From a virus, in the IMG/VR virus record IMGVR_UViG_3300032213_003144, positions 106,426 through 170,425 of that record: DNA of 64,000 bases, one strand, 5' to 3'. Each line of letters starts with the position of its first letter. Within the stretch, counting starts at the first letter, position 1. The notes beneath the pieces are model-generated. The model was not told where the DNA came from, did no database searches, and was given only the letters and a program-made list of their open reading frames with translations. The translations under genes and the position numbers were made by a program. Of the stretch, positions 3,875 to 51,600 are shown piece after piece.

Positions 3875-5188
3875 CTAGAGCAGTATAGAAACTTTTCTCC
3901 TCTGAGGCAACCCCAGGCCAGTTAAAAATGTGAAAGCTCCAGTAGCGGAGTCAACCTGGTCGTCGTGGTCGCAAGATTCAGGAAAAGACGAGAATTCGTC
4001 TAGCCAGTTGGATAGCCATGGAGCCCTAACGACCCTCACGTTTCCATTTGCAACAGCAGCCGCGAATGGTCTTGCTCTGGTTTCTTTATCTCCAGTTGAC
4101 CGTATTGCGGAGAAGTCATAGCCAGGAAGGACGTATCTTGCGTACTGGTCGGCTAGGGCCTTGCCAGACGAGCCTGGTTCCTGCTCCATTCGTATCGCCA
4201 CGCCATGCCCGTCCTCTAGTGCTGTTTGGGCTAGAAGCTGCTCAACCTTCTCTCCTCGGACACGGGCTCTCCGTACGTCAAGAACGTAGGATATGCCCTC
4301 ATCAAGCAGCATAAGGGTCCCTACGGTCCAGTCAGGGTCAGGGTTTGAAGATGTTGGCTCTGATGCTGCCAAGTCCCAGAATCGAACAACTCGCGCAGAA
4401 CTGGTTATTGGAGGGAGTTCGGCCGAATCAATGATAACGAACCCTGTTCTATCAAATAGGGTGCCGAGCGTTGTGCTCCACCAGTCGCCCTCCTCTAGTC
4501 GTCTGCGTTCAATTGGGTCTAGGGCCTGAAGGGCTTGGCGATATGAAACAGCATCAATTCCTGGGTTATCTGTCAGTTTTGAAGGAACGAAGATTCTCCC
4601 CTCCTGGCGGCCCTCAACGATAAATCGCTGCCTAACCCAATTGGGTGCTGGGTTTGAGGCACATCGCATTCTAAGGGGAATCTGAGAAACTGGTCCGCTA
4701 TTTGGACGGCGCAATCGTGAGAAGAGGTATCTATAGTCTGACTCTCGTATTTCAGTGACTTCATCCATCCCTATAAATTGGAACTCTGAACCCTTATAAC
4801 GAAGGTAGTCATTGACATTGTTCAGGTAACCGAAAGATACCCTGGCTCCAGATGGGAAGGTAGCGATAAACGTATTGCTATTCCAGTGGATGTCATCGTA
4901 GTTTGCCATCCATGTCTTGAATCGGTCCATCAACGCTCCAGGGAGCGACAAGTCAGCAAAAGTTCTACGGAAGAGAATTGCCGAATAACCAGGAATATCT
5001 ACGTATTGAAGTGCCGACATTAGTAGTGCTGAAGATTTGCCACCACCAGCAGCGCCTCCAAAAAGGGCTTCAAGTGCGTGCGTTCTGAGAAAAACCTTTT
5101 GATTGAGTGATGGCTCCTCAGGACAGAACGGAGTCTCCTTTGGCGTGAGGTACTTAAGCACCTCGTCCCAATTTGGTTTATTAGCCAT
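3875..5188 (-). CDS. terL: Terminase large subunit
   Basis: Walker A GGAAGGGKS, Walker B FIGMDE, coupling ASNP, nuclease RFWDLAA and C-terminal HDDQVDS. Confidence 0.95.
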   Translation of the reverse strand: MANKPNWDEVLKYLTPKETPFCPEEPSLNQKVFLRTHALEALFGGAAGGGKSSALLMSALQYVDIPGYSAILFRRTFADLSLPGALMDRFKTWMANYDDIHWNSNTFIATFPSGARVSFGYLNNVNDYLRYKGSEFQFIGMDEVTEIRESDYRYLFSRLRRPNSGPVSQIPLRMRCASNPAPNWVRQRFIVEGRQEGRIFVPSKLTDNPGIDAVSYRQALQALDPIERRRLEEGDWWSTTLGTLFDRTGFVIIDSAELPPITSSARVVRFWDLAASEPTSSNPDPDWTVGTLMLLDEGISYVLDVRRARVRGEKVEQLLAQTALEDGHGVAIRMEQEPGSSGKALADQYARYVLPGYDFSAIRSTGDKETRARPFAAAVANGNVRVVRAPWLSNWLDEFSSFPESCDHDDQVDSATGAFTFLTGLGLPQRRKVSILL

Positions 5189-5446: not shown

Positions 5447-7525
5447 ATGGCTTGGAATTCATCCGAAAATAAGTCTGCTGGTCAAAAGCAGACTAAATCC
5501 GCCATTGGTTACGGCGCGCCCGTATCAAGTAACCCAAGTTACACGGATAAGCCATACAGGGACTCGTGGGATATTGAGCGTGCCTATAGAGAGGGCATGC
5601 AGAAAATTACCTGGGTTAACAGGTGTATAGATGCAATTGCTGGGAACCAAGCAAGACTTCCGATAATTCTAAGAAAAGACAATTCAAAAGACGGCGAAAT
5701 CGTAGTCGGCCGTGAGGCCAAGCGTTCTTCATTGCTTGAGCTCCTCAACGTTAAATCAAATATCGGCGAGAACTCTTTTATTTTCAGATACAGACTTTCT
5801 GCCCAGTTACTACTTGGTACGCGCGGAGCATTTATCGAAAAGATTCGCGGACGAGATGGTGGCGTTATTGGGCTGAACCTTCTTCCGCCACAGTCAACTG
5901 CACCAATTCCTGACGCTAGAACATTTGTTTCTGGGTACGAAGTGCAGATGCCTTACGGTAAAAAAGTAATAATGAAGCCAGAGGATGTTGTCTGGATTAG
6001 AAGGCCTCACCCGCTAGACCCATATCTGTCGCTAACTCCATTGGAAGCATCTGGAGTTGCCGTAGAAATAGAAAACCTAGCCAAGTTGTACAACAGAAAC
6101 TACCTGCTTAATGACGGAAGACCTGGTGGATTACTTGTTGTCAGAGGTGAGATTGACGAAGACGATAAAGAGGAATTACGCAATAGATTTAGGGGTAATT
6201 TAGGGAAAACTGGGCACACAACAGTTATCGCTGCAGACGAAGGTGTTGACTTTGTTGATACTTCGGCAAACCCAAGAGACGCTGCCTACATACAAATGCG
6301 TCAAATTACAAAAGAAGAAATTCTTGCTGCGTTTGGAGTTCCAGAATCAGTAATTGGAAATGCCTCAGGACGAACGTTTAGTAACTCATCTGAAGAGATT
6401 AGAGTTTTCTGGGTAGAGACAATGTTGCCTCACTTGGAGCCAATAGCAAGAGCTCTCGATGAACTTGACGAAAAGTATTACCTTGACTTTGACACAAGCG
6501 AAGTTCCAATTTTGCTGCTTTACAAACAGGAACGTGAAAGATACCTAAAAGACGAATTGGGCCAAGGTCTCATCTCTGTGAACGAATACAGAATTGCGAG
6601 CGGAAGAAAAGAAGTTGAAGCAGACCTCGCTGATTCATTACTCATGAATCCGAACCTGATTCCTATTGCTAATACAAAAAAGAAGATGGAAGAGAATGCC
6701 GCCCAGATACCCGGTGGCGCTCCTGGGGCACCAGGAATGCCTCCAATGCCAGGTATGCCACCAGTTCCAGGTATGCCACCAGTTGAGGGCGCAGTTCCAC
6801 CACTTGACCCAAATACGATGCAAGGTGCAATGGCTGAAGTTGCAGCCGGTGGTGCTGGTGACATGGCTCAGACTACGCTCCCACCAGAAGTGGCCGGAAT
6901 GGCACCAGCAACTGGAGCAGCCCCAATACCGCAAGGCATGGCTAGCGACCCACAAGATGGTTTTCAGTACAAAACAGCACTGACCGAGGATTTTGATAAA
7001 TCGGAAATGGCGATTGAGCGCTGGTCAGAAATTCTCTCCAGAGGAATCGAGAGGGTCGTTGAAAGACAGCAAAGGGTTGTTCTGGAAAAGGCTGGCAGCA
7101 GCAAGTCCAAGAAAGCTCTGATGTCTGGGACTCTTGACCTTGATTCAATTTTCGCCACAGATACATGGAACAAGCAAATGGAAGACGACTTGCGTCCTGT
7201 TATTTCCGCAATAATCAATGACTCTTTTGAATTTAGAAAAGAATCGTATTCTCAAAAAGGACTCAAGCCGAGAACAATTGCGCCTGCGACAATTAAGAAA
7301 AATATCGATTCACAGATATCAAGAATCATCTCAATCAACTCAGGTATTCGTTCTTCAATGGAAGAAATGATGATGAAATCATTCTCCCACGCTGGAGAAG
7401 AGCAAAGATTTTCCGTCTTTAGAGAAGAGCTTGTGGGCATGTACGCAAACATTCTTGCCAAGGACCAGTTGGAAATTTCAGAAACTGAAGCAAAAAATGC
7501 ATGGACGTTTGGACAGGTTGGATAG
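5447..7525 (+). CDS. Portal protein (HK97 family) with Pro-rich linker and C-terminal extension
   Basis: VNRCIDAIA, LTPLEA, NDGRPGGLL, EILAAFGVP, ISVNEYR motifs. Confidence 0.92.
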   Translation: MAWNSSENKSAGQKQTKSAIGYGAPVSSNPSYTDKPYRDSWDIERAYREGMQKITWVNRCIDAIAGNQARLPIILRKDNSKDGEIVVGREAKRSSLLELLNVKSNIGENSFIFRYRLSAQLLLGTRGAFIEKIRGRDGGVIGLNLLPPQSTAPIPDARTFVSGYEVQMPYGKKVIMKPEDVVWIRRPHPLDPYLSLTPLEASGVAVEIENLAKLYNRNYLLNDGRPGGLLVVRGEIDEDDKEELRNRFRGNLGKTGHTTVIAADEGVDFVDTSANPRDAAYIQMRQITKEEILAAFGVPESVIGNASGRTFSNSSEEIRVFWVETMLPHLEPIARALDELDEKYYLDFDTSEVPILLLYKQERERYLKDELGQGLISVNEYRIASGRKEVEADLADSLLMNPNLIPIANTKKKMEENAAQIPGGAPGAPGMPPMPGMPPVPGMPPVEGAVPPLDPNTMQGAMAEVAAGGAGDMAQTTLPPEVAGMAPATGAAPIPQGMASDPQDGFQYKTALTEDFDKSEMAIERWSEILSRGIERVVERQQRVVLEKAGSSKSKKALMSGTLDLDSIFATDTWNKQMEDDLRPVISAIINDSFEFRKESYSQKGLKPRTIAPATIKKNIDSQISRIISINSGIRSSMEEMMMKSFSHAGEEQRFSVFREELVGMYANILAKDQLEISETEAKNAWTFGQVG

Positions 7526-7633
7526 TTTCACTAAACTATTTCTGTAAAACATTCACTTTTTTTAAATACTTACATTCTGGAACATGTTTTTCGTTTAATA
7601 TCGACTAGCAGCCGAGAGAAGTTGGTTCCAAAA

Positions 7634-10600
7634 ATGTCAAATGAAGCATTCGAATACAAGTCATCGGCGCACGGCTCTCAGTCCATCAAAGGAACGGTCA
7701 GCCTAGACGAGGCCCAGGGGATAGTCGAATGTTTCGTAGCTGGAATTGGTAATAAAGACTCAGTCGGAGACGTATGTGCTTCAGGAGCCTTCACAAAGAG
7801 CCTTCTTCGCAGAAAGCCAAGAGTTGTATGGGGCCACAACTGGAATGACCCTATTGGTAAAGTATTGGAAATATACGAGGTTGGTCCACAGGACCCACGC
7901 CTCCCACTGAAAATGAAACTTGCCGGGATAGGCGGTTTGTTTGCAAAAGTTCAATTTAATCTAAGTTCAGAAAAAGGAAAAGAAGCATTTGCTAATGTCC
8001 ACTTTTTCGGAGAAGAACAAGAGTGGTCGATTGGATACAAAACACTAAGAGCTCAGTTTGACCAAAAGTCGCAAGCAAATATTCTTTACGAAGTTGAACT
8101 CTACGAAGTTAGCCCTGTTCTCCACGGAGCCAATCAGCTAACAGGAACAATATCCGTTAAGGCAGATGATTCCGCCTACGGAGGTTCAGTAGCAATGATG
8201 CCGCAAAGAGAAGAGAGCAACGGCTACGAAGAAATGGAGAAGGAACTCTCCAATCTATTCGGTGCAAAAGTTTCTGTTCATTCAATCGATGGCGACGAGG
8301 TCGTATTCACACGCCAAGAGATGAACGGTGCGAAGAAGTACAAGTGCGGCTTCATGAGAAATCAAGGCCGATACATGTTCGGAACTCCTGAAGTAATCAA
8401 TATTCCGCAGTCCCCAGTTCGTTCTCCTCAATCAGCACCAATGCCTGTGGTGAGCGGAAGACCTACTCCACCCAACGACCCACAACGCGTCATTAGACCA
8501 CAACAGATGCCTTCAATACCAGTTGCGATTAAGCCAAGCGACAATGGGCTAATGATGATTCCTCTTCCAGCTGTTCAGTATGACTCAAACGAAAAGCCGT
8601 CCCTGGACAAGGAGGAAGCAGACCTCCGTGATGCGCTGTTAAAGATAGTTTCACGCCACGGCAAATTTAACGAAGACTCTAACGGCGTATGGGCTGGATA
8701 CAGCCCTGCAGAAGAAAACGAAGTAGCACGTATCGGTGTTAAATGCTCAAACTGCGTCTTCTATCAAGGCGGCTCAAAGTGCAAAATTATTGACATGCCA
8801 GTTGAGCCAGAAGGGAAATGCAGATTTGCTGTTATTCCAAATGGGATTGTTTTGAGCAGTGGTTCCAAAGAACTCGAAGAGCATGTTTCCGAAGCAGAAA
8901 ATGCAATCATCGATGTACTAGAACTAAAATACCCAGGCGAGTTTGTTCTTGGAATTGTCAGAAATGCAGTTGGTAAGAAAAAGAAGAAAAGAAATAAATA
9001 CAAAAATCTTTCAGAGTTTGGTGATGACGACGACATGGGTGAAAAGTCGTACGTAATACCAGTCGAGCCAAGTTTTGCATTTAGAGTAAAAACAGCCCTT
9101 GACCCAATATTCGATTACCACAGAGCAGAGACTTTTGTTGACTCAGAAGGAATAGTGATTACCTCTGGGGTAACTGAAAATCTCATAGACGCAGTCGATA
9201 CGGCTCTTCACAACTTAAAAAAAAAATTCTCAGAACATGAAATAGAGGGAAAATCCCTCGGTTACAGAATAGGTCGGTCGCTTGGTTCGAGGCTCGTAGA
9301 TAGACCAAACCTCGGTGGTGGTAGGGATAGAAACAACCGTGGCGGCGGTCGTGGATTCGGGATGCCGGATGGCGACCTTGACCCCAGGACAAGAGTTGAC
9401 AAGAATAGGGATGGAACACTTTTTGATAATGTCCCAGGATGGGAACAGCCAGACCCAACCCCAGATGGACCTGGTTCGATAAATAACCGAAAACTCTCTT
9501 CCTCACAAAGAAGAGATGTTGCCAATATTCCGAGCGAGAGCGTAAACCCAGAATCGGTAGACGGTGACGTAATAAAGAGCCGCAAACCAAGGTATACGGC
9601 TGATGACCTTGGTGAAATCCTTGGAGAAAAGAAGAAGCCAACGAAGAAGGCAGTAGCAAAAAAATCTCCTGTTAAAAAAGAAAAAGTAAAGCGTGGAGAA
9701 CTTGATTTCGCTAAGGGTCCCAAAAAAGATAAGACACCATCACTATCCTCTGGTGAGGAAAGACCGCCACGTACTGCAGTTGCAATGCAGATGGACCCAA
9801 AGAATTCGAAGCTTGCAAGACAGATTGATTACGACCCACAGAATGGTGACCTCACTGTTTATTACAGAGATGGCAAAAAAGAAACATTCAATGATGTTCC
9901 TTATGACCGCGTGCGTAAGGCTGGATTTGACGACAAGCCAGATGCATTAATCAGTGCACTACAGAGAGAACAAAAGAAACCACAAGGCAGGATTAGTCTT
10001 GCATCTGGGGAGCAAGAAAAGAGACTTACCCGCCACTCTGGTGACCCAAAATTTGAATCACTTGTATCTCCAGAAGAACTTGAAAAGCGTAAGAAGTTTG
10101 AAGAAGTAATTAAAGACTGGAAAGACTCTGGTTACGGATGGGAAGACGTTCCTAGATACAAGCCAGACGTCTACAAGTCCCCGGATTATTTGCGTGGTAG
10201 GGAAATGGGCGTCAATCAGGCCAAAGTTATGTGGCGTGGAGATAGCACGGTAGAGAGACCAAAGGGATTCAACGAAAAGCAAAAAGCCTCACTTGATTAT
10301 CAAGAGTGGTATTCACGAATGGTGATGAGGGCTGGAGCTTTTCTAGAAGCATCACGTGGCGATGACAACGAATTCTACAACGGCATGGAAGATGCCATGC
10401 ATGAATTCATGTACAACAATAGACCAGATATAACAACCTACAACATCGATGGAGATAGAAAAGAACCGATGGCCGACTGGATGCGTCAGTACGGATTCGA
10501 CCCAGGCTCACCGACTCCATTAAGAAAGAAAAAAGAAGGAAAGAAGAGAAGTTCACTCTCCCTCTCTTCTGGCGCAGACGACGATACAAGACCAAACTTT

Positions 10601-13600
10601 GATGAAGAGAATTACGAAAGTGATACCAACGTAGATTTCTACGACACCCTTCTTGACATGATGGGCCCAGAAGAAGAAAGACCAAAAGTCACTTCTCGCA
10701 AAAAGCCAAAAGACATGAGTGATGAAGAGATTTATCGCAAGAGAACAACAACCGGAGCATCCCTGCAGGATGTTGCGGAAGAACTTGGTCTAACTAGAAT
10801 GGAAGTTAGGAAGCGCGAACAACGACACATGCGCAAAATGCGCAATGAAAAAGACGGCGTATCACTTTCTTCTGGAGCAAGCGATGACTGGGCCACTTCT
10901 AGGGGATACGAGCCAGACAGATTCGACCTTCGCGAAACGATGAATCAAATTGGTAGAGGAAACATAATGGCCATATCTGGTGGCCGCGTTGAGCGTAGAG
11001 GGAATGAAATGATTCTTCCTTCTACAAAAGACCAGCAAGTAGTCATCGGGTACAACTCGGTTCCAGACCTCTACTACGTCAGAGCTGAGCAGAAAATAAA
11101 TACAGGTAAGGACAAGGGAACCAACAGAATTCTTGCGCAATGGGACGAGGTTTATGCTGACGAAATTGGCGAACTCGCATATCAGGCAAGTCTCAAGCCA
11201 GCAAACCTCAATAGTGAGAACAAGGAGTACTGGAAGCTCGGCAAGGGAAATCAATTTGCAGACAGACTCGTTGATAGACGTAGCGGAAAGCTCGTAAGCA
11301 GAGAATCAAGAAATCTTCCATCAAAGCCAGCGCCAGAGGAAAGCCCAACTCTTTCTTCGGGTGGCAGAGGTCGTGACTACTACAACTACGACATAACAAC
11401 AACCGATGAAGGAAATGGATTACTCGACCAGGTGCATGATTACCTTGAAGAGAACCCCCTAATCAAAGATGACATAACAACCGATATTGCAGACATGCTC
11501 GGTGGAGATGGAATAGTTGAGGCTAATGGCTTTGACACAAAAAAGGCATTTGACCTGGTTACTGGTGGAGACGATGAGTTCCAGGATTATATGGACATCG
11601 TTGATGATGCCATGGAGGCCCTAAGTAATGGCTCCCTAGCAAAGCACAAGGCAACCGTTCGCGATACGAATGTAAGACTTGAGTCAGCAAAGCCAGGCAG
11701 TAATGAAGCAGGAAAACTCGAAGCAATCCGTGATAGGTCGTACGAGTGGATTGGCGACATAAACAAGTATTCACGCGTATCCACAATTAAAGATAAGAAG
11801 AATATTGAAGCCAGCGACGTGGCAACAAGAATGATTTCCAAAGAGCAAGATTCGCTCTGGAATGCTCGCGCGTCAATAACAGAAAAATATATTGAAGATA
11901 TTGCTTCAGCTGGAAAAGAATCAAAGCGCCGTGTATCAATCAGCGCAGTAGATACAGACTCTCGCGACATTCCAGAGTATGATTTAGCTCTCTCGTCTGG
12001 CAGTGTTTTTAAGGATAAACCAGCATCAAAAACGCTTTCCGGTAAGGCTGATGGCCTTTCTCTTGCCTCTGGAGAAAATAAAAAGATTTATGACGAAATA
12101 GGTAAGTCCATTCTTGAGGCATTAATTGAGATGGATAAGAACCCAACAGCAACCTATTGGGACGTACCGTGGAGAACACCAACCCTATACGCAAGAAACC
12201 CAACAAAGAATCGCCTTTATCAGGGAATGAACTCCCTACTGCTTGCCAATGCGCATAGGCAGAATAAGTACAGAGGAAATTTCTGGGCCGGGAAGACTCA
12301 GTGGGCAAAGTTCGGTGGAACAATAAAGAATGGCAAGGATGGAGTAAATATCCTTGTTCCAAGAGAGGGTTCAACCGGAAAATACTTTGTCGTACAGACC
12401 GTATATAACCTCGATGATATTGAAGGGCTCCCAGATGCATATGTAAAGAAGCTTCTAGATACAGGAAAGGAACTTCTTGACCCAGCGACAAAGATAAAGG
12501 ACGCCGAGTCGGTAATGGAGGAAATTAATCCTGTCATCAAGTTTGGCGGAGATGCTGCATACTTCTCAATTACGAATGACCATATTCAAATGCCACCATA
12601 CGAGATGTTTAAGTCTCCAGAGCAGTACTACTCAACCCTACTGCATGAGCTAACACACTGGACTGGCGGAAAGTCTCGTCTTGGAAGAAAGCAGGTAGGC
12701 CGCCAACAGGACAAGAAGGCTTATGCATACGAGGAATTAATTGCAGAAATGGGTTCTTCTTTCCTTCTTGCCGCACTTGGCATCGCACCAGAAGTAAGAC
12801 AAGACCACGTTGTTTATATCAAGAGTTGGATTTCCAACCTTCGCGAGGACCCGGGTGCATTCGTTAGAGCAATGACTGAGGCGCAGCAGGCGGCAGACTG
12901 GGTCATGGATAGGTCTCCAACAATGAGAAGACTTTCCGGTGTACCTGATAGCGAAAGAAAAGGAAAGCCAGATGCGGTTGATGCTGGGGAATCCGCAGTC
13001 TCAGAAGTAGTTGAAGAGACTAAGGGCTCTGTTACAGCACTCTCATCCGGCTCTCAAGTTGGATTAAGGAAAGCAAAAGAACTCAGATACTTTGGCGATG
13101 AAAAAGAATATGGCTCAGGCATAACTCAAAGAGACTCCAGTGGAAGGATTCTTGATGAATCTGGAGCACTTTCTCTTTCAAGTGGTGCAAAACCAATCGT
13201 CAGCCTTGACGGTAAAACAACGATTCCAAGACTAGACGACTCTGTCTCGTATAGAGAAAAGTATAAGTTCCTTCCTGATGAATTTGAACCAACAGAACAA
13301 CAAAAGGCTTCAATAGACACGCTTGTTCATATGCTTGAAAGTGAGACACCAGGGATTGTCGCTATTGGTGCTGGTGCTGGTTCAGGAAAGACAACCAACC
13401 TTAAACAGAATGCTCGTGCAGTTGCCGCACTTTACCCTGGAAAACAAATTTATTACACCGTATTCAATAGAGGAAATGCTAAAGACGGAAACAGGGTGAT
13501 GCCTAGAAATACAGGTGTTGCAACTGGGAACCAAATAGCATATTGGTCACTTGTTCTTGGAACTGGAGACGCCTTCTATGGTGCTGGAACAACCAGAAAG

Positions 13601-16600
13601 ATACAACTCGGAGTTGGTCCAAGAGACTCCAAGAAGTTGCGAGGAGCAAAACGTAACACCGTGAACGTTGCAACCACGTTTGAGGGAGAAACAAAGGAAT
13701 TCGCAGGAGAGATACCAGGGTACAGAGAGCTTGGGTACACAAGCTATGACTCTGCACCGAATATCGCAGAACGCCTTGCTAAAGATGGGATTGTTGACGA
13801 AGAAACTGATGATGGTTTTACTATTTCCCAAAATCTCAAAAAAGCTCTTGGCAGGTTTGCTGAAAGCTCGGATGAGAAGCTGTCAAAACAACATTTCCTA
13901 CTTCGTGATATAGAGAAAATTCAGGCATTACAAAATGGTGAACCAGTACCAACTGAAGATTCAATCGATGAAAAAATGGTTCAATATGCACAAATGCTTT
14001 GGGATGAAACAGTTGACCCAAAATCAAACGTGCTTATCCCGCAGGACTATCAAATCAAGATGTGGGCCCTAACAAATCCAGACCTTAGGTATGACAAAGG
14101 ACTGATTGGTCACAGGCCAAACGAAACAGTGTTTGATAAAGTTTTTCTTGGAACCGTTGAGGAAATGAACTCCGGAAAAATAAAAGTCGGAGACCTTGTA
14201 GAATTTAAAATTCCAGAAACTGGAGAAAAAGTTGCAGCAGTAATACGAAAACTAAACCCTCCATCAAAGAAAGAAACAAAAAAGGGTGAGCTATCTGGCA
14301 GTAGACAAGTAACCGGAACTGTATCGATTGTTTCTGTCACGAGTGATAAGCCTCTTGATGTGTTCATGTTCGACGAGGCCCAAGACGTAAACCCTGTGTT
14401 GGCAAAAGTACTCGCCGATAATGCAAAGAACATGCCGATAATAATGGTTGGCGACTCACGCCAAGCAATCTATGGGTTCAGAGGAGCCATGGATGCCCTG
14501 GAGAAAGCTAATGCAACATTCAGACTTCCTCTAACACGTTCATTTAGGTATGGAGCAATCCCTGCATATTTAGCCAATGTCGTGCTGATGCAAGGCAATA
14601 TAGACGATTTTAACTTTTATCAAAACATGGGAACACCCGAAAAAAACATATGGCACCATGTTGTAGGAGAGGCGCAAAATGTTGTTATAAACGCGCTCAA
14701 CATAAACGGACCAGATGGGAAAATACTTCCTAAAAAAGAACTTGAAAAGAAACTTAAATTCATAGAAGTTAAATACAAACTTGGCGGAAGAGCTGTCGAC
14801 TTTAAGGGCAAAAACGAAAAAGAAGTAAAAGACATCATTTCAAAACTTTACGACGAACATGTCCCACGCGCTGAAGGTCAGATAGTTGAGGACATGACTA
14901 GTGCTGATGCTGTTCTAACTTCTACCAACTCCGGAGTAATGGTCGAAGCCTTGAAGGTAATCCAGGACGGTATTAATGCACATCAAATCGCGTATCTCGA
15001 CCTAGATGGAATAGAAGATATAAAAAATCCAGAAGAGCTAGCTGGAAGACTAAGAACATTATCCGAGAAATACACTCTTGATGGTGTTGCTGTAGACCTT
15101 ATAGAAATATTGGAAAAAGATGGTAGAGATTCAATGCTCAATGCCGTCAATGAACTTAGAGAAGAATATGCTCCAGGTGGAGCTGACGGGAAAATACCAG
15201 CCATTGGCATACCTGCCGACACACATGAAAAGTTTCTTGATTTCTTCACTCAACTCGACTGGATTATTGGTGACCTTGATAAGAAGTTTGGAATCGAAGG
15301 AAGACCAAAACCATCTAAACTACTTAAAGACGTATGGAGATTTGATAAGAAAAAGGGCAGATACCCATCAAAAGATGAGATGCTGGCAAAAATTGACAAG
15401 ATGATTAAGGGTGGAGAATCAGAACTTCGCACGCTTTACAACCTTGCTTACCCCAAGTCCAAGGATGGAGGGGTAAGAGGTGATGCAAAAGGGGCAAGAT
15501 TCTTTAAAGACCTTTTACGTCCACAAGGCCAAAAATATACTGACATAAATGGAACTGAGGTTAAGTACCAAGGCCTTAGACCAATGCGTGAAGGAATCAA
15601 TCTTCCGAATATGGAATCTGGTCGAGACCACATAACTACCGAAGAGATGGACAGAGTCGGAAAGCTTAAGCCTGGAACAAAATCTGGAAGCAGCCAAAAA
15701 ATTTCCTGGATAATACCCAAGAAGGAAGAGAGCGTATCTGATGGTGAGGTATTCGTAAAACTTCACATCGGAGAAAACGGAAAGCCATCTGGAGCGTTGA
15801 TAATTGCAGGCGATGGAGCGCACGGAGGAAAGTACAAAGTCAGAAGATGGAATAAGGCCAAGAAAACCTGGAGCCCAATCGAAGAGGGGAAACCAGGGAA
15901 GATTGACTACCACGGTGATATATCAAAAGTTATAAAAAAGATGAAAGCTGAATACCCAGACGCCGTAATTGAATTTAGGCAGGGACTAATACAGCAAGTT
16001 GGTACAGCTCAGACATTCCCATCAGACATATCTGATGATTTTGTCCCACCAATGAAAGGTGATTTGCCAGATAGTTCTGTGCCAAGAGCTTCGCTTCCAG
16101 GGTTCTTCATACAAGGAAAAGACAGCGAAGAAACTGCGCGTCTTGCCAATGAACTCGGAAACAGGGTTAGACAACTTGCCACGGAAGGAAACACGGATAC
16201 CGACATTATGACGGTTCATGTTTCCAAGGGCAGGGAGTGGAAGAGGGTCAGACTCGCTGATGATTTCAAAAATCCTGAAGACATGGTCCCAGTAATACCA
16301 GAAGAAGAATTAGCAAAGTTAAGTCCAAAGGACAGACTTGCTGTCGAGAGACAGCTCCAATTGATGCGCAGAGAAGAGCACAACAAGGTATACATTGCAA
16401 TAACCAGAGCTCAAGAGCAAATAGATATTGGCGCAGTTCTTGCAAAACTTTATTTTGATGATTCACAAAACGCATCTATAAAAAGTGCAAAAGATAAAAT
16501 TGCAGAAAATCCAGATGGAATATATGACGAGCTTCAGGCTCCTGCTGGTTTCTATGTTCCGTATTCTGGTGATACAGAAGCACGCGATGCTGCCAGAAAA

Positions 16601-31747: not shown

Positions 31748-32500
31748 ATGAAAACATATGCGGTAATAAAAGATTCAGTAAGAAATACACCACTCGTTAT
31801 AGCTGTTCGGGAAGAGGGGATGGTTTCTGTTCACGGTATCAATGAGTACGGTAAGTCGGTCACTCAGCACATTCTCAAGAGTGGCTCAATTGACAGCAAG
31901 TCAATGCCTGATGGGGTTGAAATAACTGAATTTAAGTCAATTACTGGCAATACAGCTGCTCTTTTTGAGAGCTACATCAGCAAGTCGATAATGAACGTAC
32001 CAATTACTGAGTCAATTATCAATACCGAATTTGACAAAAAGACACGTGGGAAATCGTTCAAGGAAAGAAGCATTCTCTCCGAGGGTAAGGAGTCATCCCA
32101 GCATTCAGGCAAGCAGATACGCAAGTTCTCAAATGTAACAGCAAAAATTAATATGGTTGCATTTAAGGCCGGCTCATTTAAGAGTAGATTAAAAAAGAGT
32201 TCTGTCATAACATCGCTGTCTGCTTACGGAGTTGGGTTTGATTCGTCTGCGAACAAAATCGTGCAGAAAGATTCAAAGAGAATCACCAATCACACCATAG
32301 ACAAAATCAATGATTATGTCGGTGAAGGACAAATGAGAAGGTTTGCCAGAAAGACAATGGTGAGCAATTTAGACGGAACCAGACTCACCAGACGTTCAAG
32401 TGCATTGTCTAAAAAAATTGAAGAAATTTCAGAAAAGTCAGTAAGACCTGAACATAGATATTCTGAATCAATCAAGTCAAGACTCAAGAGACTCTCATGA
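31748..32500 (+). CDS. Hypothetical protein
   Basis: 250-aa ORF in the operon. Confidence 0.7.
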   Translation: MKTYAVIKDSVRNTPLVIAVREEGMVSVHGINEYGKSVTQHILKSGSIDSKSMPDGVEITEFKSITGNTAALFESYISKSIMNVPITESIINTEFDKKTRGKSFKERSILSEGKESSQHSGKQIRKFSNVTAKINMVAFKAGSFKSRLKKSSVITSLSAYGVGFDSSANKIVQKDSKRITNHTIDKINDYVGEGQMRRFARKTMVSNLDGTRLTRRSSALSKKIEEISEKSVRPEHRYSESIKSRLKRLS

Positions 32501-33730: not shown

Positions 33731-35098
33731 ATGTCGCAAGACAAAGCAAGAACAGAAGAGTTGCAATCAGCTCTTCGCACGAAAATGGCAGAGAATAAGG
33801 CCATTGCGGATTCATTCAAAGTTGAAGAAGGAACTGTCATAGTTTCGACAGACCAGAAATCAGCATTCGACAAGAACATGAGAGACATCAAGGAAATTAA
33901 GTCACTCTTGTCCGACCTTGAAACAATGGGCTCAGTAGAGTCATGGTCAAATCAGCCACAGGGCGAAACAGTTTCATCTGCTTACGCCGCTGCAGCTGCC
34001 GACATGAATCACCTGTCGTCACATGAAATCAAGTCAATTGGTCAGATGTTCCTTGACTCACCAGAGTTCAAGTCTTTGGCCAATGGTCGTAACGGTGCAA
34101 ACATGTCATCACCATGGCAAGTTGCAACTTCGTTGACAACACACAACTTCGGCATTCAGCAGAAGGACATTTACACAGCATTGCCAACAACATCAGTAAC
34201 AAACAGCCGCCTCGGTGAGTTTGGAACAGTTCAACGCGATGCCATGGTTCTTCCTCCAATGCGTACGAAGCGTGTCCGTGACTTGTTCCCAGTTCGTAGA
34301 ACAAACGCAGCAGTTATCGAGTACTTCCGTCAGCTTGGTTTTACAACCCTTCAAGCTGGTCATGGAACAAACTCGGCATCATCTGTTGCTGAAAGAACAA
34401 CAGCTGGAACAGCATTTGGTTTGAAGCCACAATCTTCATTCGCATTCGTTGGCGAGCAAGCTCCAATTCGCACATTGGCACACTGGGAAGCTGCACACCG
34501 CAACGTCCTCGCCGATGAGCCACAATTGCGCTCAATCATCGACAACGAACTGATGTACGGTCTCCGTCTTCTTGAGGATAATCAAATCCTCAACGGCAAC
34601 GGAACTGGCGAGAACCTTCTCGGTATTCTCCAGACACCAAACATCCAGAGCTACAGCTGGTCAAGCGGCGCAACCTTGCCGGTACCAGACACCAAGGCTG
34701 ATGCACTTCGCCGTGCAGCAACTCTATCGTTCTTGGCATACTACGAGCCATCTGGCATCGTTTTGCACCCGAACGACTGGGAAGATATCGAATTGACGAA
34801 GGACGTAAACGGCCAGTACTTGGTCGCTATGTCAGTCGCAATGGGCGGCGAGCCAAAGGTTTGGAGAATGCCAGTAATTGACACTCCAGCCATCACTGAA
34901 GGCCAAGCACTTGTTGGTGCCTTCGGAACCGGTGCTCAGTTGTACGACAGAGAAGAAGCAAGCATTCGCATCAGCGAACAGCACTCAGACTTCTTTGTCC
35001 GCAATGCGATTGTGGTTCTTGCAGAACAGAGACTTGCTCTCGCTGTCAAGCGCCCAGAAGCATTCGTCAAGGTGACATTCAACAACGCACCAGCGTGA
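33731..35098 (+). CDS. Major capsid protein (HK97 fold)
   Basis: N-terminal helical delta-like domain, VAE..LKPQS, EDNQILNGNGTG, VLHPNDW, FVRNAIVVLAEQRLALAVKRPEAFVK; strong AGGAG RBS. Confidence 0.95.
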   Translation: MSQDKARTEELQSALRTKMAENKAIADSFKVEEGTVIVSTDQKSAFDKNMRDIKEIKSLLSDLETMGSVESWSNQPQGETVSSAYAAAAADMNHLSSHEIKSIGQMFLDSPEFKSLANGRNGANMSSPWQVATSLTTHNFGIQQKDIYTALPTTSVTNSRLGEFGTVQRDAMVLPPMRTKRVRDLFPVRRTNAAVIEYFRQLGFTTLQAGHGTNSASSVAERTTAGTAFGLKPQSSFAFVGEQAPIRTLAHWEAAHRNVLADEPQLRSIIDNELMYGLRLLEDNQILNGNGTGENLLGILQTPNIQSYSWSSGATLPVPDTKADALRRAATLSFLAYYEPSGIVLHPNDWEDIELTKDVNGQYLVAMSVAMGGEPKVWRMPVIDTPAITEGQALVGAFGTGAQLYDREEASIRISEQHSDFFVRNAIVVLAEQRLALAVKRPEAFVKVTFNNAPA

Positions 35099-35128: not shown

Positions 35129-35174
35129 CACCCCCGAGAGTAGCCGTAATGGCGAAATCGGGGGTGTTTCTTTT
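35129..35174 (+). terminator. Intrinsic terminator after the capsid gene
   Basis: CACCCCCGA...TCGGGGGTG followed by TTTCTTTT. Confidence 0.8.
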
Positions 35175-35206
35175 ATACGGACATTTATGTGCGAGAATTG
35201 GTAATC

Positions 35207-36475
35207 ATGGATAACAACGAAATTGACTCACTGTACGAAGAGTTGCTCAAAATCGAAGAGATTTTTATAAAGAGTGATGTAGCTACAGAACATATAGAAG
35301 ACGAAAAAGTGCACCTTGAAAGCACACCTCTTTACGACGAGTATTACGGAGCAAGAGTTTTCAGTGAACTTTCTGATAAGTTTGATGAAAGAGAAGAGAA
35401 GTCAGCGTTAAAAGACCCAGACGGTGGTCTTACTGCTGAAGGAAGAAAATTTTTCAAGCGCACTGAAGGCGCAAACTTAAAGCCTGGAGTAAAAGGCCCA
35501 GCAGATACTCCAGAAAAAATGAGAAGAAAAGGTTCATTCCTTACACGCTTCTTTACAAACCCTTCAGGTCCATTGGTTGACGAAAAAGGAAGAGCAACAA
35601 GACTTGCTTTATCCGCTACAGCTTGGGGCGAGAGAGTACCTAAGAATGCAGAAGATGCTGCTGCATTAGCATCAAAGGGTAGAGCACTGCTTGATAAATA
35701 CGAAAATTCAAAAAAGAAGTCAGAAGAAATCGAAGATATTGAAGTAAAAGCTGGCGGCTCTGCCCTTGGTGCTTCAATAGGTCAGGCTGCTGGTGGTGCT
35801 GCTCCAACTGGAACGAATCCACAAGATACAAGAGACCATGACGGCGATGGAATGATTTTTGATGGAACACCACAAGAGCAAAGAAAGCCGTACGAACGCT
35901 CCAAGGATGCCAACTACGAGAAGCAAAGAAGAAAGTTTGTACGAGAGCAACTCAGAAGGCAAGGCATAAAAGCAAACAGAAGAGTTGAAGATAGAAGTAA
36001 GGAAGAAAGAGATGCTCGAGCTAGAGCAAGAGCAGCTTTCGATAAAGTTCTACGTGACGGACAAGGAAAACCAACGGCTGACGGCCTACCAAAGGGTCCA
36101 AGTTATCCACCAGGCCAATCCGTACCAAAGAAGTATCCACCTGGACAAAAGCCTGAATATAGAAAACCCGAGCCACCAGCAGATAGAAAACCTGCTGATA
36201 GATATCCAGAGCCAGGCAAGAAGTATCCTCCTGGTCAGAAACCTTCCCCATCGAGCCCACGTGACCAAAAGCCAGCCGATAGATACCCGCAAACCAGCAA
36301 TCCTTCTGCCACACGACCTGGAGCAGATAGGACAGAGCAAGCAAGTGGCCCAGCCAGAGGTCCGCGAGTTGACAGGGACAAGAATCCAGACCCAGGATTC
36401 TTCAAGCCAAAACCACAGCTCGGACCCCCTACACCAAAAAGAACACCAGGTAACAACGGGTTACGCAGGTCCTAA
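35207..36475 (+). CDS. Head-region protein (DUF6321-like domain, DxDGDG module, Pro-rich repeats)
   Basis: KDPDGGLTAEGR..ANLKPGV..RRKGSF; DHDGDGMIFDGTP; YPPGQ and KPADRYP repeats. Confidence 0.7.
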   Translation: MDNNEIDSLYEELLKIEEIFIKSDVATEHIEDEKVHLESTPLYDEYYGARVFSELSDKFDEREEKSALKDPDGGLTAEGRKFFKRTEGANLKPGVKGPADTPEKMRRKGSFLTRFFTNPSGPLVDEKGRATRLALSATAWGERVPKNAEDAAALASKGRALLDKYENSKKKSEEIEDIEVKAGGSALGASIGQAAGGAAPTGTNPQDTRDHDGDGMIFDGTPQEQRKPYERSKDANYEKQRRKFVREQLRRQGIKANRRVEDRSKEERDARARARAAFDKVLRDGQGKPTADGLPKGPSYPPGQSVPKKYPPGQKPEYRKPEPPADRKPADRYPEPGKKYPPGQKPSPSSPRDQKPADRYPQTSNPSATRPGADRTEQASGPARGPRVDRDKNPDPGFFKPKPQLGPPTPKRTPGNNGLRRS

Positions 36476-45502: not shown

Positions 45503-45835
45503 ATGAATAGCTCTGAAGTATCGGCTAAACCACCAAAGAACGGCAAGTGTCTCGGCTATGACCCAAATATTTTTTTCCCGTTTGCGGAAAAATCCGGAGA
45601 CTCCTATTCGCGGAGTTATGTAAGAGGAAGAGAAAATACGATTCTCGCAAAATCAATATGCAAAGAATGCCTCGTTTCGGAAGAGTGTCTTCAGTACTCA
45701 TTGCTTCACGAACCGCACGGAATCTGGGGTGGCAAAACGGAACGAGAAAGAAAGACTCTGAGAAGAAGACTTGGTGTGTCGCTAGTACCGAAAGAGCCAA
45801 TAAATATTTTGCTCGGATTTAAGTTCGGGGGCTAG
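45503..45835 (+). CDS. whiB: WhiB-family transcription factor
   Basis: C...FFP...AKSICKECLV..EC...HGIWGGKTERER. Confidence 0.93.
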   Translation: MNSSEVSAKPPKNGKCLGYDPNIFFPFAEKSGDSYSRSYVRGRENTILAKSICKECLVSEECLQYSLLHEPHGIWGGKTERERKTLRRRLGVSLVPKEPINILLGFKFGG

Positions 45836-48682: not shown

Positions 48683-51600
48683 ATGTCTTCGCAAAATAAT
48701 GAGTTTGAGATTCCCTTTAGCCAGTCACGCCGTGGCAAAAAAGAGGAAATTAACGTTAAGGCAATAGGCCGGCGAATTGGCTCATCGGCAGCAAGCAGAC
48801 TCGTTGACCGACCGAATATAGGTGGTAGAAGAAGGCGCGGAACTCGTGGACTTGGCATCCCAGATGGAGACCTGAATCCCCGCACTAGAGTTGATGTCGA
48901 CGGAGATGGAACAATCTTCGATGGGTGGCCTGGCTGGGAGCAACCAGACCCAACCCCATCATCGATGCCTAATGCTCCAAAATTATCTCTATCTAGTGGA
49001 GAAAAAGATAAAAAACCATCTTTCCCACGCAAACCTACATATGGCCCATTCATTGGAAGTGCTGAAGACAGATTTGGCAAAGCAAAAACATGGGAAGAGT
49101 TTAAAGAAATTTACGACGACACCGAAATAAACTTCTTTGACTACGAAACAACTGGTCTTGTATTTGACGAATTCAGAGAGCCGTCGGCCAATGGTCAGCC
49201 AGTTCAGTTTGGCGTTGTGAGAATGAAGGGCGATAAGGAAATAGCTCGCTTGAATCTGTTTATGAACCCAAAAGAGCCGCTTGGCGAATGGTCGGCAAGA
49301 GAATTAAAAGATAGAGACGGAAACCAGCTAACAGACGAATGGCTATCCAGACAGATGTCCATGGCCGAAGCTCACAGGGCACTCGTTGAATTCGCTGGAG
49401 AAGATGCAATATTTGGTGTGCAGAATGCTGCGTTTGACAAAGACGTTCTAGAACAGACGCTTAGCGATGCCGGAATTGAATGGCGTCCCGGTGGATACCT
49501 AGATACAAAAGACATAGCAGACATGACTCTTCCTAAATGGTCTGAAGAAAATCAGGATGGGCCGTTCGTCATTGACTCTGAAGGAAACAAAAAACCATCA
49601 AATGGCCTTGCAGCAATAACCAAATACCTAGAGGTTGAGCTAGGGGAAAAACACCACACTGCAGATGCTGATGCACAGGCTACCGGCCTAGTGATGTCGG
49701 CGATAATAAATGGTGCCATTGAGAGAGACTGGCCGACAAATCTTCTTGATTCAGAAAAAAGAAAAACAAAACTGCAGAAAGATAATGAAAAATTTGATGC
49801 AGAAATAAAAAAATTTAGAGCAGCAAAAGAAGAATTTATTAAAGCTGCAAAGCAAAACGAACAGCCAAGCTTGTCGTCTGGTTCAAAAGAGCGCCCAATA
49901 ATAAAACTAGAAAACGACAAAAAGCGCCCAGTGATATCGTTCCAGAAAGATGAACGAGAATTGCTAAAAAAACATCGTTCAACAAAATACAAATATGGCG
50001 ACAAGAGTGCACTTGGTGGAGAAATTAAGTCTACTAAAACCAACTGGCTAAAGGGTTTGTCAAGTGAGCAAATTTCAGAACTCATAGTTCCCAGTTCGCA
50101 AGAAGAGCACTACAGAATGTGGGTTGACGATATAGCCCCAGGCGCATATGAGACACCGTCAATCAATGAGGCATTCAGGAAATATTATGACGAGATGATG
50201 GCAGGAAATCCATGGGATGAGGTTGACTATTCTCCGGACAACGTCCAGGCTTCACGGGATGCAGTAAAAGCACTGCTTGACTCATCACCAGCCGTTAAAT
50301 GGGCCTTTGAAAACCATGGGGCTCCATCCATTGGTGTGATGTCAGCAAAAGGAATTGAAACCTACGAAGCAATACCATCTGTAAGTCAAAAATTGACCGC
50401 GCTGCAGAATGAAAGATTTTTAGCTAAAAAACCATTTGTCAGGGCAAGACTTTCTCCTGGAACCAATTTGCTGATATTTAACAAGCGTGCCCTCATTGAT
50501 AGAGAGGGCTCGATTCCCGGGGAAGAGACTCCGCTCCTATGGTCAGACGCGCATATGCCACTAATAACCGATGCGCATATAGATAAATCAATCACTGGAA
50601 CGATTGTTCATGAATGGGGACACTGGCTTGTTTTTAGAGCAGTAAAAGACACAGAGCAGATAAAAAGGAATAGAACCAACTTCTTCGGCTCGGGGGACCT
50701 TAACGACGATAATTACATCAAAGCCCTCGCCCTATCTGAGTACTATTCAAAAACAGAAAAAAACAATGGACTTATGGATTTATGGAATAAAAAAGTTCCC
50801 ATAGAAGACTCCAGAGAGGTTCCGCGTGTTCTGACTTCATATGGTCACGTAAACGAGGCAGAAACATTCGCCGAAGGTGTAGTTGCATACTTTCATCCAA
50901 ATCCAGAAGTAAGAAAAAATGCAATAAATGAAAAGTTGCGCAACGATATTGAGACATTCCTGGGAGATGGGGACGGAAAGAAACCGTGGGACGATAATGA
51001 ATCCATAGAGCTTGCTATATCCTCTGGGCGGACATCTAAGCAGCGTTTGGAGAAGAGAGAAGCCAATTCAACCTCATCGGAACAGGCATTTTCGTCAATG
51101 CCAGAGGATGACAGGGAATTGGCCCGACTTGACTACTTCTTGTCACTCTCTTCTGGCGCAATAATTCCCGAATCCGGCTCGCGCAAACTAGAAATAATAA
51201 ACGATTTTGATGATAGAAAGAACGACAATTTTGCGACTCCGATACGCGTTGTGAGCTTTAAGGACAGTAACGGGAAAGATGTTGAGTACACGATATTTGC
51301 CACTGGGAAATTTGGCGACAGCGTTTACGTTTTTGAAAAGACAAAACTAGATAAATACGTATCAGAAAAAGAAGAAATGATTTCTCTCGCCAATGGGGTT
51401 CCATTTGAGGAGGTTGGCATATCCGTCATAAGTACAATGACAGACGAAAGAGAAATACGAGATAAAAAAAATGGCCTAGTTGGCGTAATGTCTGTCATGC
51501 CTCCGTCGGGTGACGGAGAAACATCCGTAGTACACGAAATTGCAATCGACGACAAACATAAAAGAAGAGGACTCGCCTCTGCTCTGTTTAAATACCACAG

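What the first reader, a model, noticed from the sequence alone, without database searches (positions are those of the whole stretch)
9245..9465. Shared ~70-aa leader module (RLVDRPNxGG...DGDLxPRTRVDxxxDGTxFD..PGWEQPDPTP) in two giant proteins 39 kb apart
Seen: a highly similar module is at 9245-9465 and at the N-terminus of ORF48683 (48752-48958), with a shorter relative in ORF35207 (35741-35890: EVKAGG...DHDGDGMIFDGTPQEQ). Each copy is preceded by a K-S/A site (EGKS, NVKA, EVKA), and in both giants it is followed by the start of the LSS[GS]-punctuated cargo. The DxDxDG loop is a known Ca-binding signature. Inference: a capsid-targeting or packaging tag that lets ORF48683, encoded in the replication region, join the head payload.
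Basis: partly seen in the sequence, partly recalled or inferred. Interest (0 to 1): 0.8.

Follow-up and report, generated by a model that had tools for sequence, protein, structure and literature searches.

The report
Conserved leader on phage cargo polyproteins
Two giant multi-enzyme proteins of an uncultured 170-kb phage share an unannotated, disordered leader of about 85-105 residues that always sits first, ahead of freely shuffled enzyme cassettes; this is the pattern expected of a tag that loads cargo into the phage head, but no experiment yet shows it.

Summary
The two modules are 52% identical over about 100 aa (E 1e-25) and are the only significant similarity between giants A (7622-18706) and C (48683-56434). 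ORF35189, a DUF6321 protein next to the capsid gene, carries a real partial copy (E 3.5e-5 with a profile built only from other phages).

The module matches nothing in Pfam, PHROGs or PDB. Among 1.84 billion representative proteins it occurs only in giant proteins of one clade of uncultured phages, probably actinobacterial. It takes two positions only:
- at about aa 540-630 of protease-fused giants
- at residues 1-~110 of a second giant encoded in the replication region

New evidence for a leader role:
- Cargo cassettes are shuffled between phages, with breakpoints at the [LF][SA]SG linkers, while the module stays first.
- Leaders have moved between the two contexts at least twice.
- The module starts at an invariant Lys that resembles the HK97 K|SLG maturation site, also present in this phage's capsid protein.
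- AlphaFold predicts it to be disordered.

Capsid targeting is therefore the best reading (about 0.45) but is unproven. Giant B has no leader. A conserved A10-11 slippery run just upstream probably yields a protease form without it. The scan had noted this same stretch once before, from an overlapping window of the same genome, not on other DNA.

The parts
9050..9226 (+). Small beta-alpha-beta-beta-alpha domain of giant A (aa 477-535) that immediately precedes the module. It is part of the constant N-terminal block.
   Evidence: AlphaFold pLDDT is 80-89. Several positions are invariant across the 19 sequences of alignment A3. Foldseek against PDB found no informative match.
9217..9226 (+). A10 run encoding Leu-Lys-Lys-Lys, about 10 codons before the module. 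It is a putative slippage site that would give a short protease form lacking the module and the cargo.
   Evidence: It is the only run of nine or more A in the 64-kb window. AAA makes up only 49% of Lys codons in gene A. A10/A11 is kept at the DNA level in 14 distinct relatives. Both shifted frames stop within 0-13 codons in every case.
9239..9262 (+). Junction ...E-I-E-G-K544 | S545-L-G: the putative S78 protease site that starts the module in A.
   Evidence: The Lys is invariant in alignment A3. A pattern scan finds such sites only in A, C, ORF35189, the MCP delta/mature junction and one place in B. HK97 gp5 residues 103-106 read K-S-L-G.
9254..9358 (+). Module in A, basic Arg/Gly-rich N-half (aa 545-579), containing the D-R-P-N-x-G-G motif.
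   Evidence: pI is 12.0. It is conserved in both A-type and C-type leaders.
9359..9493 (+). Module in A, acidic Asp/Pro-rich C-half. It holds the D-x-N-x-D-G loop (9398-9433) and E-Q-P-D-P-T-P (9443-9463).
   Evidence: pI is 4.4. Loop position 1 (Asp) and the E-[QR]-P-D-P-T stretch are invariant or nearly so.
9494..9505 (+). LSSS, the first linker-like motif after the module. The block that is collinear in all A-type relatives ends at about aa 634.
48683..48760 (+). Giant C pre-sequence, M1-K26, ending in the K26|A27 junction.
   Evidence: The pre-sequence motif (E-F-x-I-P-F ... basic ... K|A) is conserved in C-type giants of other clades: G004, P0028, P0045 and P0033.
48761..48988 (+). Module in C (aa 27-102): basic half 48761-48853 and acidic half 48854-48982, with the D-x-D-x-D-G loop at 48893-48928.
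48989..49000 (+). First LSSG linker of C. The exonuclease cassette starts here.
   Evidence: The cassette breakpoint C103 corresponds to P0028 587 and G004C 1484.
35747..35884 (+). Partial copy in ORF35189 (DUF6321 protein): the K187|A188 junction, a Gly/Ala-rich stretch, and a D-x-D-G-D-G-M-I-F-D-G loop (35834-35884).
   Evidence: Pfam DUF6321 at 1.7e-27. Loop profile at E 3.5e-5. The motif is kept in the orthologues of G001, G002, G003 and G005 and lost in G004.
34013..34042 (+). MCP delta/mature junction L-S-S-H-E-I-K101|S102-I-G. It resembles the start of the module and the HK97 K103|S104 site.
   Evidence: It is conserved in five relatives. The MCP is 38% identical to HK97 gp5, E 3e-60.

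Best explanation
The module is a position-constrained, intrinsically disordered, bipartite leader. It has an Arg/Gly-rich basic half and an Asp/Pro-rich half with a DxDxDG-type loop, and it marks a cargo array for incorporation into the assembling procapsid.

Proposed origin: it arose as the segment following the protease unit of the S78 prohead-protease protein. That is the same place as the C-terminal encapsidation tail of HK97 gp4. It became internal when cargo cassettes were appended, and it was copied to the N-terminus of a second giant (C) encoded among replication genes.

Proposed course of events (inferred): the leader binds an interior procapsid component, such as the capsid-protein delta domain or shell interior, the portal, or the conserved very acidic ORF18823 protein. 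The array is enclosed. The protease then cuts at the K|[SA] junction and the arrays are cut at the [LF][SA]SG linkers. This frees enzyme-sized cargo (exonuclease, ArdC, helicase, GNAT and others) to be ejected with the DNA.

Shown here: the homology, the distribution, the fixed position, the cassette shuffling, the exchange between contexts, the flanking motifs and the predicted disorder. Inferred: binding, encapsidation, cleavage, Ca2+ binding and ejection.
For: 1. The module is the only significant similarity between A and C.
2. Profile search of 1.84e9 representative proteins: 21 hits at E<=1e-3. One (P0023) is repeat junk. Those inspected are protease-fused proteins (mostly giants of 2,300-3,750 aa; also one complete 1,089-aa protein and fragments) with the module at about aa 450-650, or N-terminal copies on second giants. 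There are 59 loci in IMG/VR.
3. C-type giants of four clades keep the leader at residues 1-~110 while the cassettes behind it are permuted. The exonuclease cassette starts at aa 103, 587 or 1484. Breakpoints coincide with linker motifs. P0045 and P0046 have near-identical leaders but different first cassettes.
4. In A-type giants the collinear block (51-74% identity) ends right after the module, and the downstream cargo is rearranged.
5. The leader tree mixes A and C contexts: three changes are needed and two are forced by well-supported branches. A_P0027 is sister to C_P0028 at 92/97.
6. The invariant Lys junction resembles the MCP junction and the HK97 K|SLG site.
7. AlphaFold gives pLDDT 32-61 for the module next to a confident flanking domain, as expected for a docking peptide.
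8. Complete relatives without a C homologue have only one module.
9. Precedents exist. The N-terminal 30 residues of P1 DarB suffice to package a reporter, and T4 has a capsid-targeting signal (PMC9024508). Polyvalent proteins are predicted to be packaged cargo (PMC5512222).
Against:
- Giant B (20520-28619), in the head operon, has no leader of either type. The leader is therefore not a universal ticket, or B enters another way.
- In A the cargo is already covalently tied to the protease unit, so a targeting tag looks redundant there.
- The conserved A10-11 run predicts a protease form that lacks the module. That fits poorly with the module being the protease's own encapsidation tail.
- Two different second-half variants can coexist in one genome (G003, G004). 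This argues against a tightly co-evolving single partner for that half.
- Gene C lies among replication genes, and its expression timing is unknown.
Confidence: 0.45

Rival explanations
1. Protease-recruitment element. The leader is an exosite or first-cut substrate that docks the S78 protease (or the giants' own zincins) onto an array and starts its processing. It does not bring the array into the head.
For: - It begins exactly at the HK97-like K|[SA] junction shared with the MCP.
- It is shared by the two most heavily linker-punctuated proteins, with 13 and 8 L[SA]SG sites against 3 in leaderless B.
- ORF35189 carries the junction plus the loop half.
Against: - In A the protease is in cis, so recruitment seems unnecessary.
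- B also has linker motifs without a leader.
- Each giant has its own HExxH zincin, which could do the processing.
- AlphaFold did not dock the module onto the protease domain, although the model is low-confidence.
Confidence: 0.15
2. Ejection or pilot leader. The disordered basic and Ca-loop segment anchors the array at the portal or on the DNA, so that the cargo is threaded out first or in order at infection. Loss of Ca2+ could be the trigger.
For: - It sits at the extreme N-terminal position in C-type giants and is predicted to be disordered.
- The Arg/Gly-rich half has pI 12 and could bind DNA.
- The acidic ligand positions of the loop are conserved.
Against: - If the linkers are cut inside the head, a leader at one end cannot guide the separate pieces.
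- In A it is internal, behind about 540 aa.
- There is no evidence of portal contact.
Confidence: 0.15
3. The module is itself a small cargo: an internal peptide that condenses or neutralises DNA, or acts in the host, and merely tends to be encoded first.
For: - It is delimited like other cassettes, by K|[SA] upstream and a linker downstream.
- It has a bipartite basic/acidic composition.
- The fragment of ORF35189 after its K|A junction is also basic, with pI 10.3.
Against: - Every other cassette changes position between phages, whereas this one never does in the roughly 20 distinct protein versions examined.
- It occurs at most once per protein and never outside these two positions.
Confidence: 0.1
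4. Functionless remnant of a duplication or recombination between the two giant genes.
For: The A and C copies within this lineage are more alike in the module (72% by tblastn) than the C leaders of this genome and G004 are to each other (about 43%). This could reflect recent exchange.
Against: - It is conserved in at least four clades, at only 33-93% identity over the aligned region, with invariant residues.
- Both contexts are kept in several clades, and a conserved pre-sequence accompanies it.
Confidence: 0.03

Closest known systems
N-terminal capsid-targeting sequences of packaged phage proteins (T4 internal proteins and Alt; P1 DarB N-terminal 30 residues, PMC9024508)
   Same: A leader sits at the N-terminus of a large, non-structural, anti-defence cargo protein (DarB is a 250-kDa polyvalent-type protein). 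It is independent of the cargo behind it and is associated with prohead-protease processing.
   Different: - There is no sequence relationship.
- This unit is 85-105 aa long rather than 10-30 aa, and it is bipartite with an Asp loop.
- It also occurs internally, after a fused protease.
- Sufficiency for packaging is untested.
C-terminal encapsidation tail of the HK97 gp4 maturation protease (Duda, Oh & Hendrix 2013, listed as ref. 35 in PMC9024508; content recalled from my own knowledge, paper not held)
   Same: The protease family is the same (Peptidase_S78). The element lies directly after the protease unit. The capsid protein is 38% identical to HK97 gp5 and carries a K|S-[IL]-G junction.
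   Different: - The gp4 tail shows no evident similarity (gp4 sequence seen).
- Here about 350 extra residues separate the protease domain from the module.
- Thousands of residues of cargo follow it.
- A slippery run predicts a form without it.
Polyvalent proteins of phages and conjugative elements (Iyer et al. 2017, PMC5512222)
   Same: The carriers are strings of conflict domains (ArdC-N plus MPTase-PolyVal, UvrD helicase, exonuclease, zincins). Such proteins are predicted to be packaged and then processed into units.
   Different: - That paper reports assemblin-like peptidases always at the C-terminus of polyvalent proteins, whereas here the protease is N-terminal.
- I did not find a shared leader, linker-delimited cassette shuffling or a slippery run described there.
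MuF-type N-terminal head-association domains fused to variable effector domains (as summarised in PMC5512222)
   Same: The logic is the same: a constant head-associated N-terminal part with variable C-terminal effectors.
   Different: MuF is a folded domain with its own Pfam family. This module is disordered and matches no family.
DxDxDG-type calcium-binding loops (EF-hand-like, Excalibur, dockerin; recalled from Rigden & Galperin 2004, not checked here)
   Same: A D-x-[DN]-x-[DN]-G core is present, followed by a hydrophobic residue at position 8. Position 1 is invariant.
   Different: - Position 12 carries no acidic residue. An acid at position 10 is conserved instead.
- There is no match to any Pfam Ca-binding family.
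- Some clades have degenerate loops.
Encapsulin cargo-loading peptides (resemblance recalled from memory; a lead only)
   Same: These are short Gly/Ser/Leu/Ile-rich peptides next to a flexible linker that dock cargo onto the interior of an HK97-fold shell. The start of the module (S-L-G-x-R-I-G-x-S-L-G) looks similar.
   Different: - The resemblance was not tested.
- Encapsulin peptides are usually C-terminal and about 10 aa long.
- No homology is claimed.

Membership tests
Phage capsid-targeting sequences (functional class: T4 CTS, P1 DarB signal) | Located at the N-terminus of a packaged non-structural protein and independent of the cargo behind it | tested here: met
   C-type giants of four clades keep it at residues 1-~110 with permuted cargo. 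In A it heads the cargo part, not the protein itself.
Phage capsid-targeting sequences (functional class: T4 CTS, P1 DarB signal) | Sufficient to direct a heterologous protein into the capsid | not testable with these tools
   This needs a reporter fusion with procapsid co-expression, or virion proteomics.
Phage capsid-targeting sequences (functional class: T4 CTS, P1 DarB signal) | Processed by the prohead protease at its consensus site | tested here: inconclusive
   The module is flanked by an HK97-like K|[SA] junction and by an LSS[GS] linker. No cleavage data exist, and zincins in each giant are alternative enzymes.
EF-hand / DxDxDG calcium-binding loops | D-x-[DN]-x-[DN]-G core with conserved ligand positions | tested here: met
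   Alignment A3 shows position 1 invariant, positions 3 and 5 as D or N, and Gly at position 6 in most sequences. Type-2 leaders also have D-x-D-x-D-G.
EF-hand / DxDxDG calcium-binding loops | Canonical 12-residue EF-hand loop with an acidic residue at position 12, and a match to a Ca-binding family model | tested here: not met
   Position 12 is W, V, I or T, and the acid is at position 10. No Pfam family matches at E<=10.
EF-hand / DxDxDG calcium-binding loops | Binds Ca2+ | not testable with these tools
   This needs ITC or a 45Ca overlay on the peptide and on Asp-to-Ala variants.
Polyvalent proteins (Iyer et al. 2017), for the carrier proteins | Many conflict-related domains in one polypeptide, including an MPTase-type zincin, encoded by a phage | tested here: met
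   MPTase-PolyVal at 9e-39, ArdcN, UvrD and RNase_T. An HExxH motif is present in each giant.
HK97-type maturation system (S78 protease with a delta-domain capsid protein) | Peptidase_S78 domain, gp5-like capsid protein and a K|S-[LI]-G junction at about residue 100 | tested here: met
   PF04586 at 7.5e-11 and phrog_80. The MCP is 38% identical to gp5, with K101|S102-I-G against K103|S104-L-G in HK97. Cleavage itself is not shown.

The most novel reading that the evidence does not exclude
These phages run a modular protein-delivery system. One conserved bipartite leader is the loading ticket for arrays of freely exchangeable, linker-delimited enzyme cassettes. Such arrays occur both on the prohead protease itself and on a second giant encoded in the replication module. 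A conserved slippery A-run sets the ratio of bare protease to cargo-laden protease. If so, the leader would be a natural, portable tag for loading arbitrary proteins into HK97-type capsids.
Probability: 0.35. Interest if true: 0.78.

Novelty: new variant of a known kind. Interest (0 to 1): 0.62.

Why it matters
How phages choose which non-structural proteins go into the head and get injected is known for only a few model phages, such as T4 and P1. This element offers:
- a sequence-defined candidate signal that can be tested experimentally, in an uncultured and probably actinobacterial phage clade
- a natural experiment, shuffled cargo behind a fixed leader, that already separates signal from cargo

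If confirmed, it would explain how a giant encoded among replication genes joins the injected anti-defence payload. It would also extend the polyvalent-protein concept with a loading grammar of leader, linker and cassette. Finally, it could provide a tag for packaging foreign proteins into HK97-fold capsids.

Tried and rejected
- Family searches: the module matches nothing in Pfam (E<=10), PHROGs (E<=1), PDB sequence profiles or the ESM Atlas by features.
- AlphaFold: two models were made, A aa 412-645 with 19 sequences and A aa 5-645 (residues 1-641 from the ATG at 7634) with 15 sequences. Both leave the module at low confidence and show no docking onto the protease or the flanking domain. 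Foldseek on the flanking domain was uninformative.
- Cultured relatives: tblastn of A aa 1-640 against 50,697 phage records hits only the protease domain, plus the Zn-ribbon segment in Actinomycetia phage DSL-LC01. None has the module.
- Leader in giant B: none was found with either the type-1 or the type-2 profile.
- Shared promoter-like motif upstream of C and the head genes: no shared k-mer was found.
- DUF6321: no literature exists. In a cyanopodovirus it is a small stand-alone gene with no informative context.
- Strict within-genome matching of the A and C leaders (concerted evolution): rejected, because G003 and G004 combine a type-1 A leader with a type-2 C leader.
- Canonical EF-hand: rejected on the basis of loop position 12.
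Full report
**Setting**

The window is the last 64 kb of a 170,425-bp IMG/VR virus record that CheckV rates as complete. It encodes the following:
- terminase (3875-5188, minus strand)
- portal (5447-7525)
- giant A (7622-18706)
- a very acidic protein, ORF18823 (27% Asp+Glu, pI 4.2)
- giant B (20520-28619)
- an HK97-type capsid protein (33731-35098)
- a DUF6321 protein, ORF35189 (35189-36475)
- nucleotide-metabolism and replication genes
- giant C (48683-56434)

Giant A begins with a Peptidase_S78 prohead protease and also holds ArdC-N with MPTase-PolyVal and a UvrD-type helicase. Giant C holds an RNase_T exonuclease.

A WhiB-like ORF lies at 45503-45835. The capsid and protease find their closest cultured matches in Gordonia and Brevibacterium phages. 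Both point to an actinobacterial host.

L[SA]SG motifs number 13 in A, 3 in B and 8 in C. There are only six elsewhere in all six reading frames.

**Observation**

A aa 534-637 and C aa 16-115 are 52% identical (E 1e-25), and this is the only significant similarity among the giants.

I built a profile from relatives only and ran it against all 941 ORFs of the genome. It ranks C first (2.4e-25), A second (3.9e-24), ORF35189 third (3.5e-5) and noise from 0.54 onwards. All three copies are therefore real. The ORF35189 copy is partial, with only the junction and the loop half.

**Anatomy**

The unit starts at an invariant Lys followed by a small residue (K544|S545 in A, K26|A27 in C). It then has four parts:
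1. A basic half of about 30-35 aa, Arg/Gly-rich with pI 12, containing D-R-P-N-x-G-G.
2. An acidic Asp/Pro-rich half with pI about 4.2, containing a D-x-[DN]-x-[DN]-G loop.
3. A nearly invariant E-Q-P-D-P-T-P stretch.
4. A short tail that ends at the first LSS[GS] linker.

A second variant of the acidic half, which I call type 2, has D-x-D-x-D-G-W..E-G-T-T-K-P. It occurs in other clades.

The loop is not a canonical EF-hand. Position 12 is not acidic, and a conserved acid sits at position 10 instead. No Ca-binding family model matches.

Two AlphaFold runs leave the module at pLDDT 32-61, with at most one short helix at its start. The 60-aa domain just before it reaches 80-89.

**Distribution**

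A profile search of 1.84 billion representative proteins returned 21 hits at E<=1e-3. One is repeat junk. The hits I inspected fall into two groups:
- protease-fused proteins with the module at about aa 450-650. Most are giants of 2,300-3,750 aa. One is a complete 1,089-aa protein, and a few are fragments.
- a second type of giant with the module at the N-terminus.

IMG/VR holds 59 loci. A word-indexed search adds the same two architectures, S78+ArdC+helicase or RNase_T.

No Pfam, PHROG, PDB or Atlas match exists. No cultured phage in a 50,697-record collection has the module. The 1,089-aa protease protein (P0026) has the module but no linker motifs. This suggests the module is ancestral to the protease protein of this clade.

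**The key comparative result**

C-type giants from four clades were compared: this genome, G003 (5,254 aa), G004 (4,564 aa) and P0028 (2,057 aa). All start with the leader, but the cassettes behind it are permuted:
- The exonuclease cassette begins at residue 103, 120, 1484 or 587.
- The ART-like cassette lies at C 1407-1605, at P0028 870-1065 and at G004C 1265-1488.
- The breakpoints coincide with [LF][SA]SG motifs.

P0045 and P0046 have near-identical leaders followed by different first cassettes.

In A-type giants the collinear block (51-74% identity) ends at about residue 634, just after the module. The downstream cargo is rearranged, and in three relatives the ArdC and helicase order is swapped. 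The module is thus the one cassette whose position never changes.

A tree of 20 leaders needs three switches between the A and C contexts, two of them forced by well-supported branches. One A-type leader is sister to a C-type leader with 92/97 support. The unit is therefore interchangeable between the two contexts.

Complete relatives that lack a C homologue carry only one strong copy of the module, the A-type one. The position of gene C after the primase-helicase and an HTH gene is syntenic in another clade.

**Processing sites**

A pattern for the junction, [DE][IVL]x0-2 K[SA][LIAGM]G, occurs at only five places in all six frames:
- the start of the module in A
- the start of the module in C
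- ORF35189
- one site in B
- the capsid protein at K101|S102

The capsid junction is conserved in five relatives. The capsid protein is 38% identical to HK97 gp5, whose residues 103-106 read K-S-L-G. From established knowledge, HK97 is cleaved between K103 and S104.

Each giant also contains at least one HExxH zincin. Iyer et al. proposed that such zincins process polyvalent proteins (PMC5512222). The enzyme responsible for the LSSG linkers is therefore open.

**ORF35189**

Orthologues in G001, G002, G003 and G005 keep the K junction and the D-x-D-G-D-G-[MT]-[IV]-F-D-G loop after the DUF6321 domain. The G004 orthologue lacks it, and the A-type leader of that genome has a degenerate loop. This is a single event, so it is only suggestive of a functional link.

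**A conserved slippery run**

About ten codons before the module, Leu-Lys-Lys-Lys is encoded by an A10 run (9217-9226). The evidence that it is maintained by selection is as follows:
- It is the only run of nine or more A in the window.
- AAA makes up only 49% of Lys codons in gene A.
- A10 or A11 is preserved at the DNA level in 14 distinct relatives whose flanking codons differ.
- Both shifted frames always stop within 0-13 codons.

Slippage would yield a protease unit of about 540 aa without the leader or the cargo. This means the module belongs to the cargo-bearing form, and it complicates the idea that it is the protease's own encapsidation tail.

**Interpretation**

The data fit a cargo-array leader best. 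The most likely mechanism is docking to an interior procapsid component, followed by proteolytic release. This is analogous to the T4 and P1 DarB capsid-targeting signals (PMC9024508) and to the HK97 gp4 tail. I give it about 0.45.

The rivals are:
- a protease-recruitment element (0.15)
- an ejection or pilot leader (0.15)
- a small cargo peptide that happens to be encoded first (0.10)
- a functionless remnant (0.03)

Weak points:
- No partner was identified.
- B has no leader.
- The tag looks redundant in A.
- The short protease form is predicted to lack it.
- Mixed second-half types occur within single genomes.
- The expression timing of C is unknown.

**Comparison with known systems and novelty**

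The carriers are polyvalent proteins in the sense of Iyer et al. However, their protease is N-terminal, whereas that paper reports assemblin-like peptidases always at the C-terminus. The leader itself is an unannotated sequence family. Functionally it would be a new, much longer and bipartite variant of a known kind of element, the capsid-targeting leader, embedded in a cassette grammar that I did not find described in the literature I could search.

Noticed in passing
window 9217-9226; relatives L010-L058: An A10/A11 run encoding L-K-K-K just before the module is conserved at the DNA level in 14 distinct relatives. Both shifted frames stop within 0-13 codons. It is a likely programmed slippage site that would give a short protease form of about 540 aa without cargo.
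   Followed up: yes
window 48683-56434 versus L081, L082, P0028, P0045, P0046: Enzyme cassettes of the C-type giants are permuted between phages, with breakpoints exactly at the [LF][SA]SG linkers. In three A-type relatives the ArdC and helicase order is swapped.
   Followed up: yes
window 12644, 22200, 50609, 54845: Each giant contains at least one HExxH zincin motif (A aa 1675, B aa 561, C aa 643 and 2055). The linkers could therefore be cut by the proteins' own metallopeptidases rather than by the S78 protease.
   Followed up: partly
window 20520-28619: Giant B, in the head operon, has only three L[SA]SG sites and no leader of either type. How it would be packaged, if it is, is unexplained.
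   Followed up: partly
window 21108-21821 versus 29987-30682: B aa 197-434 and ORF29750 aa 80-311 are weakly similar (24% over 253 aa, E 0.009) and share a Cys-containing R-C-P-x-G ... F-T-D motif. They may be paralogous domains.
   Followed up: no
window 45503-45835: A WhiB-like ORF lies upstream of the primase-helicase. A Pfam-annotated WhiB gene sits at the same place in a related 158-kb contig (L085). This suggests an actinobacterial host.
   Followed up: partly
window 35129-35175: A GC-rich hairpin followed by a T-run lies right after the capsid gene. It looks like an intrinsic terminator between the capsid gene and ORF35189.
   Followed up: no
window 8567-8944 and 18823-20499; L073: The Cys-rich segment of A (aa 316-441) is 49% identical to the C-terminus of a 'capsid maturation protease' of the freshwater Actinomycetia phage DSL-LC01. 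The D-G-S-Y-P-I...A-x-G-R motif at the C-terminus of ORF18823 also occurs in that phage's protease protein. ORF18823 is conserved (60-92% identity) in all five relatives checked.
   Followed up: partly
window 8222-8380 (A aa 201-253): A second small domain of A is confidently predicted (one helix plus a beta-sheet, pLDDT about 80) between the protease domain and the Zn-ribbon segment. Its nature is unknown.
   Followed up: no
window 32497-33582: The ORF just upstream of the capsid gene has two DUF3721 repeats.
   Followed up: no
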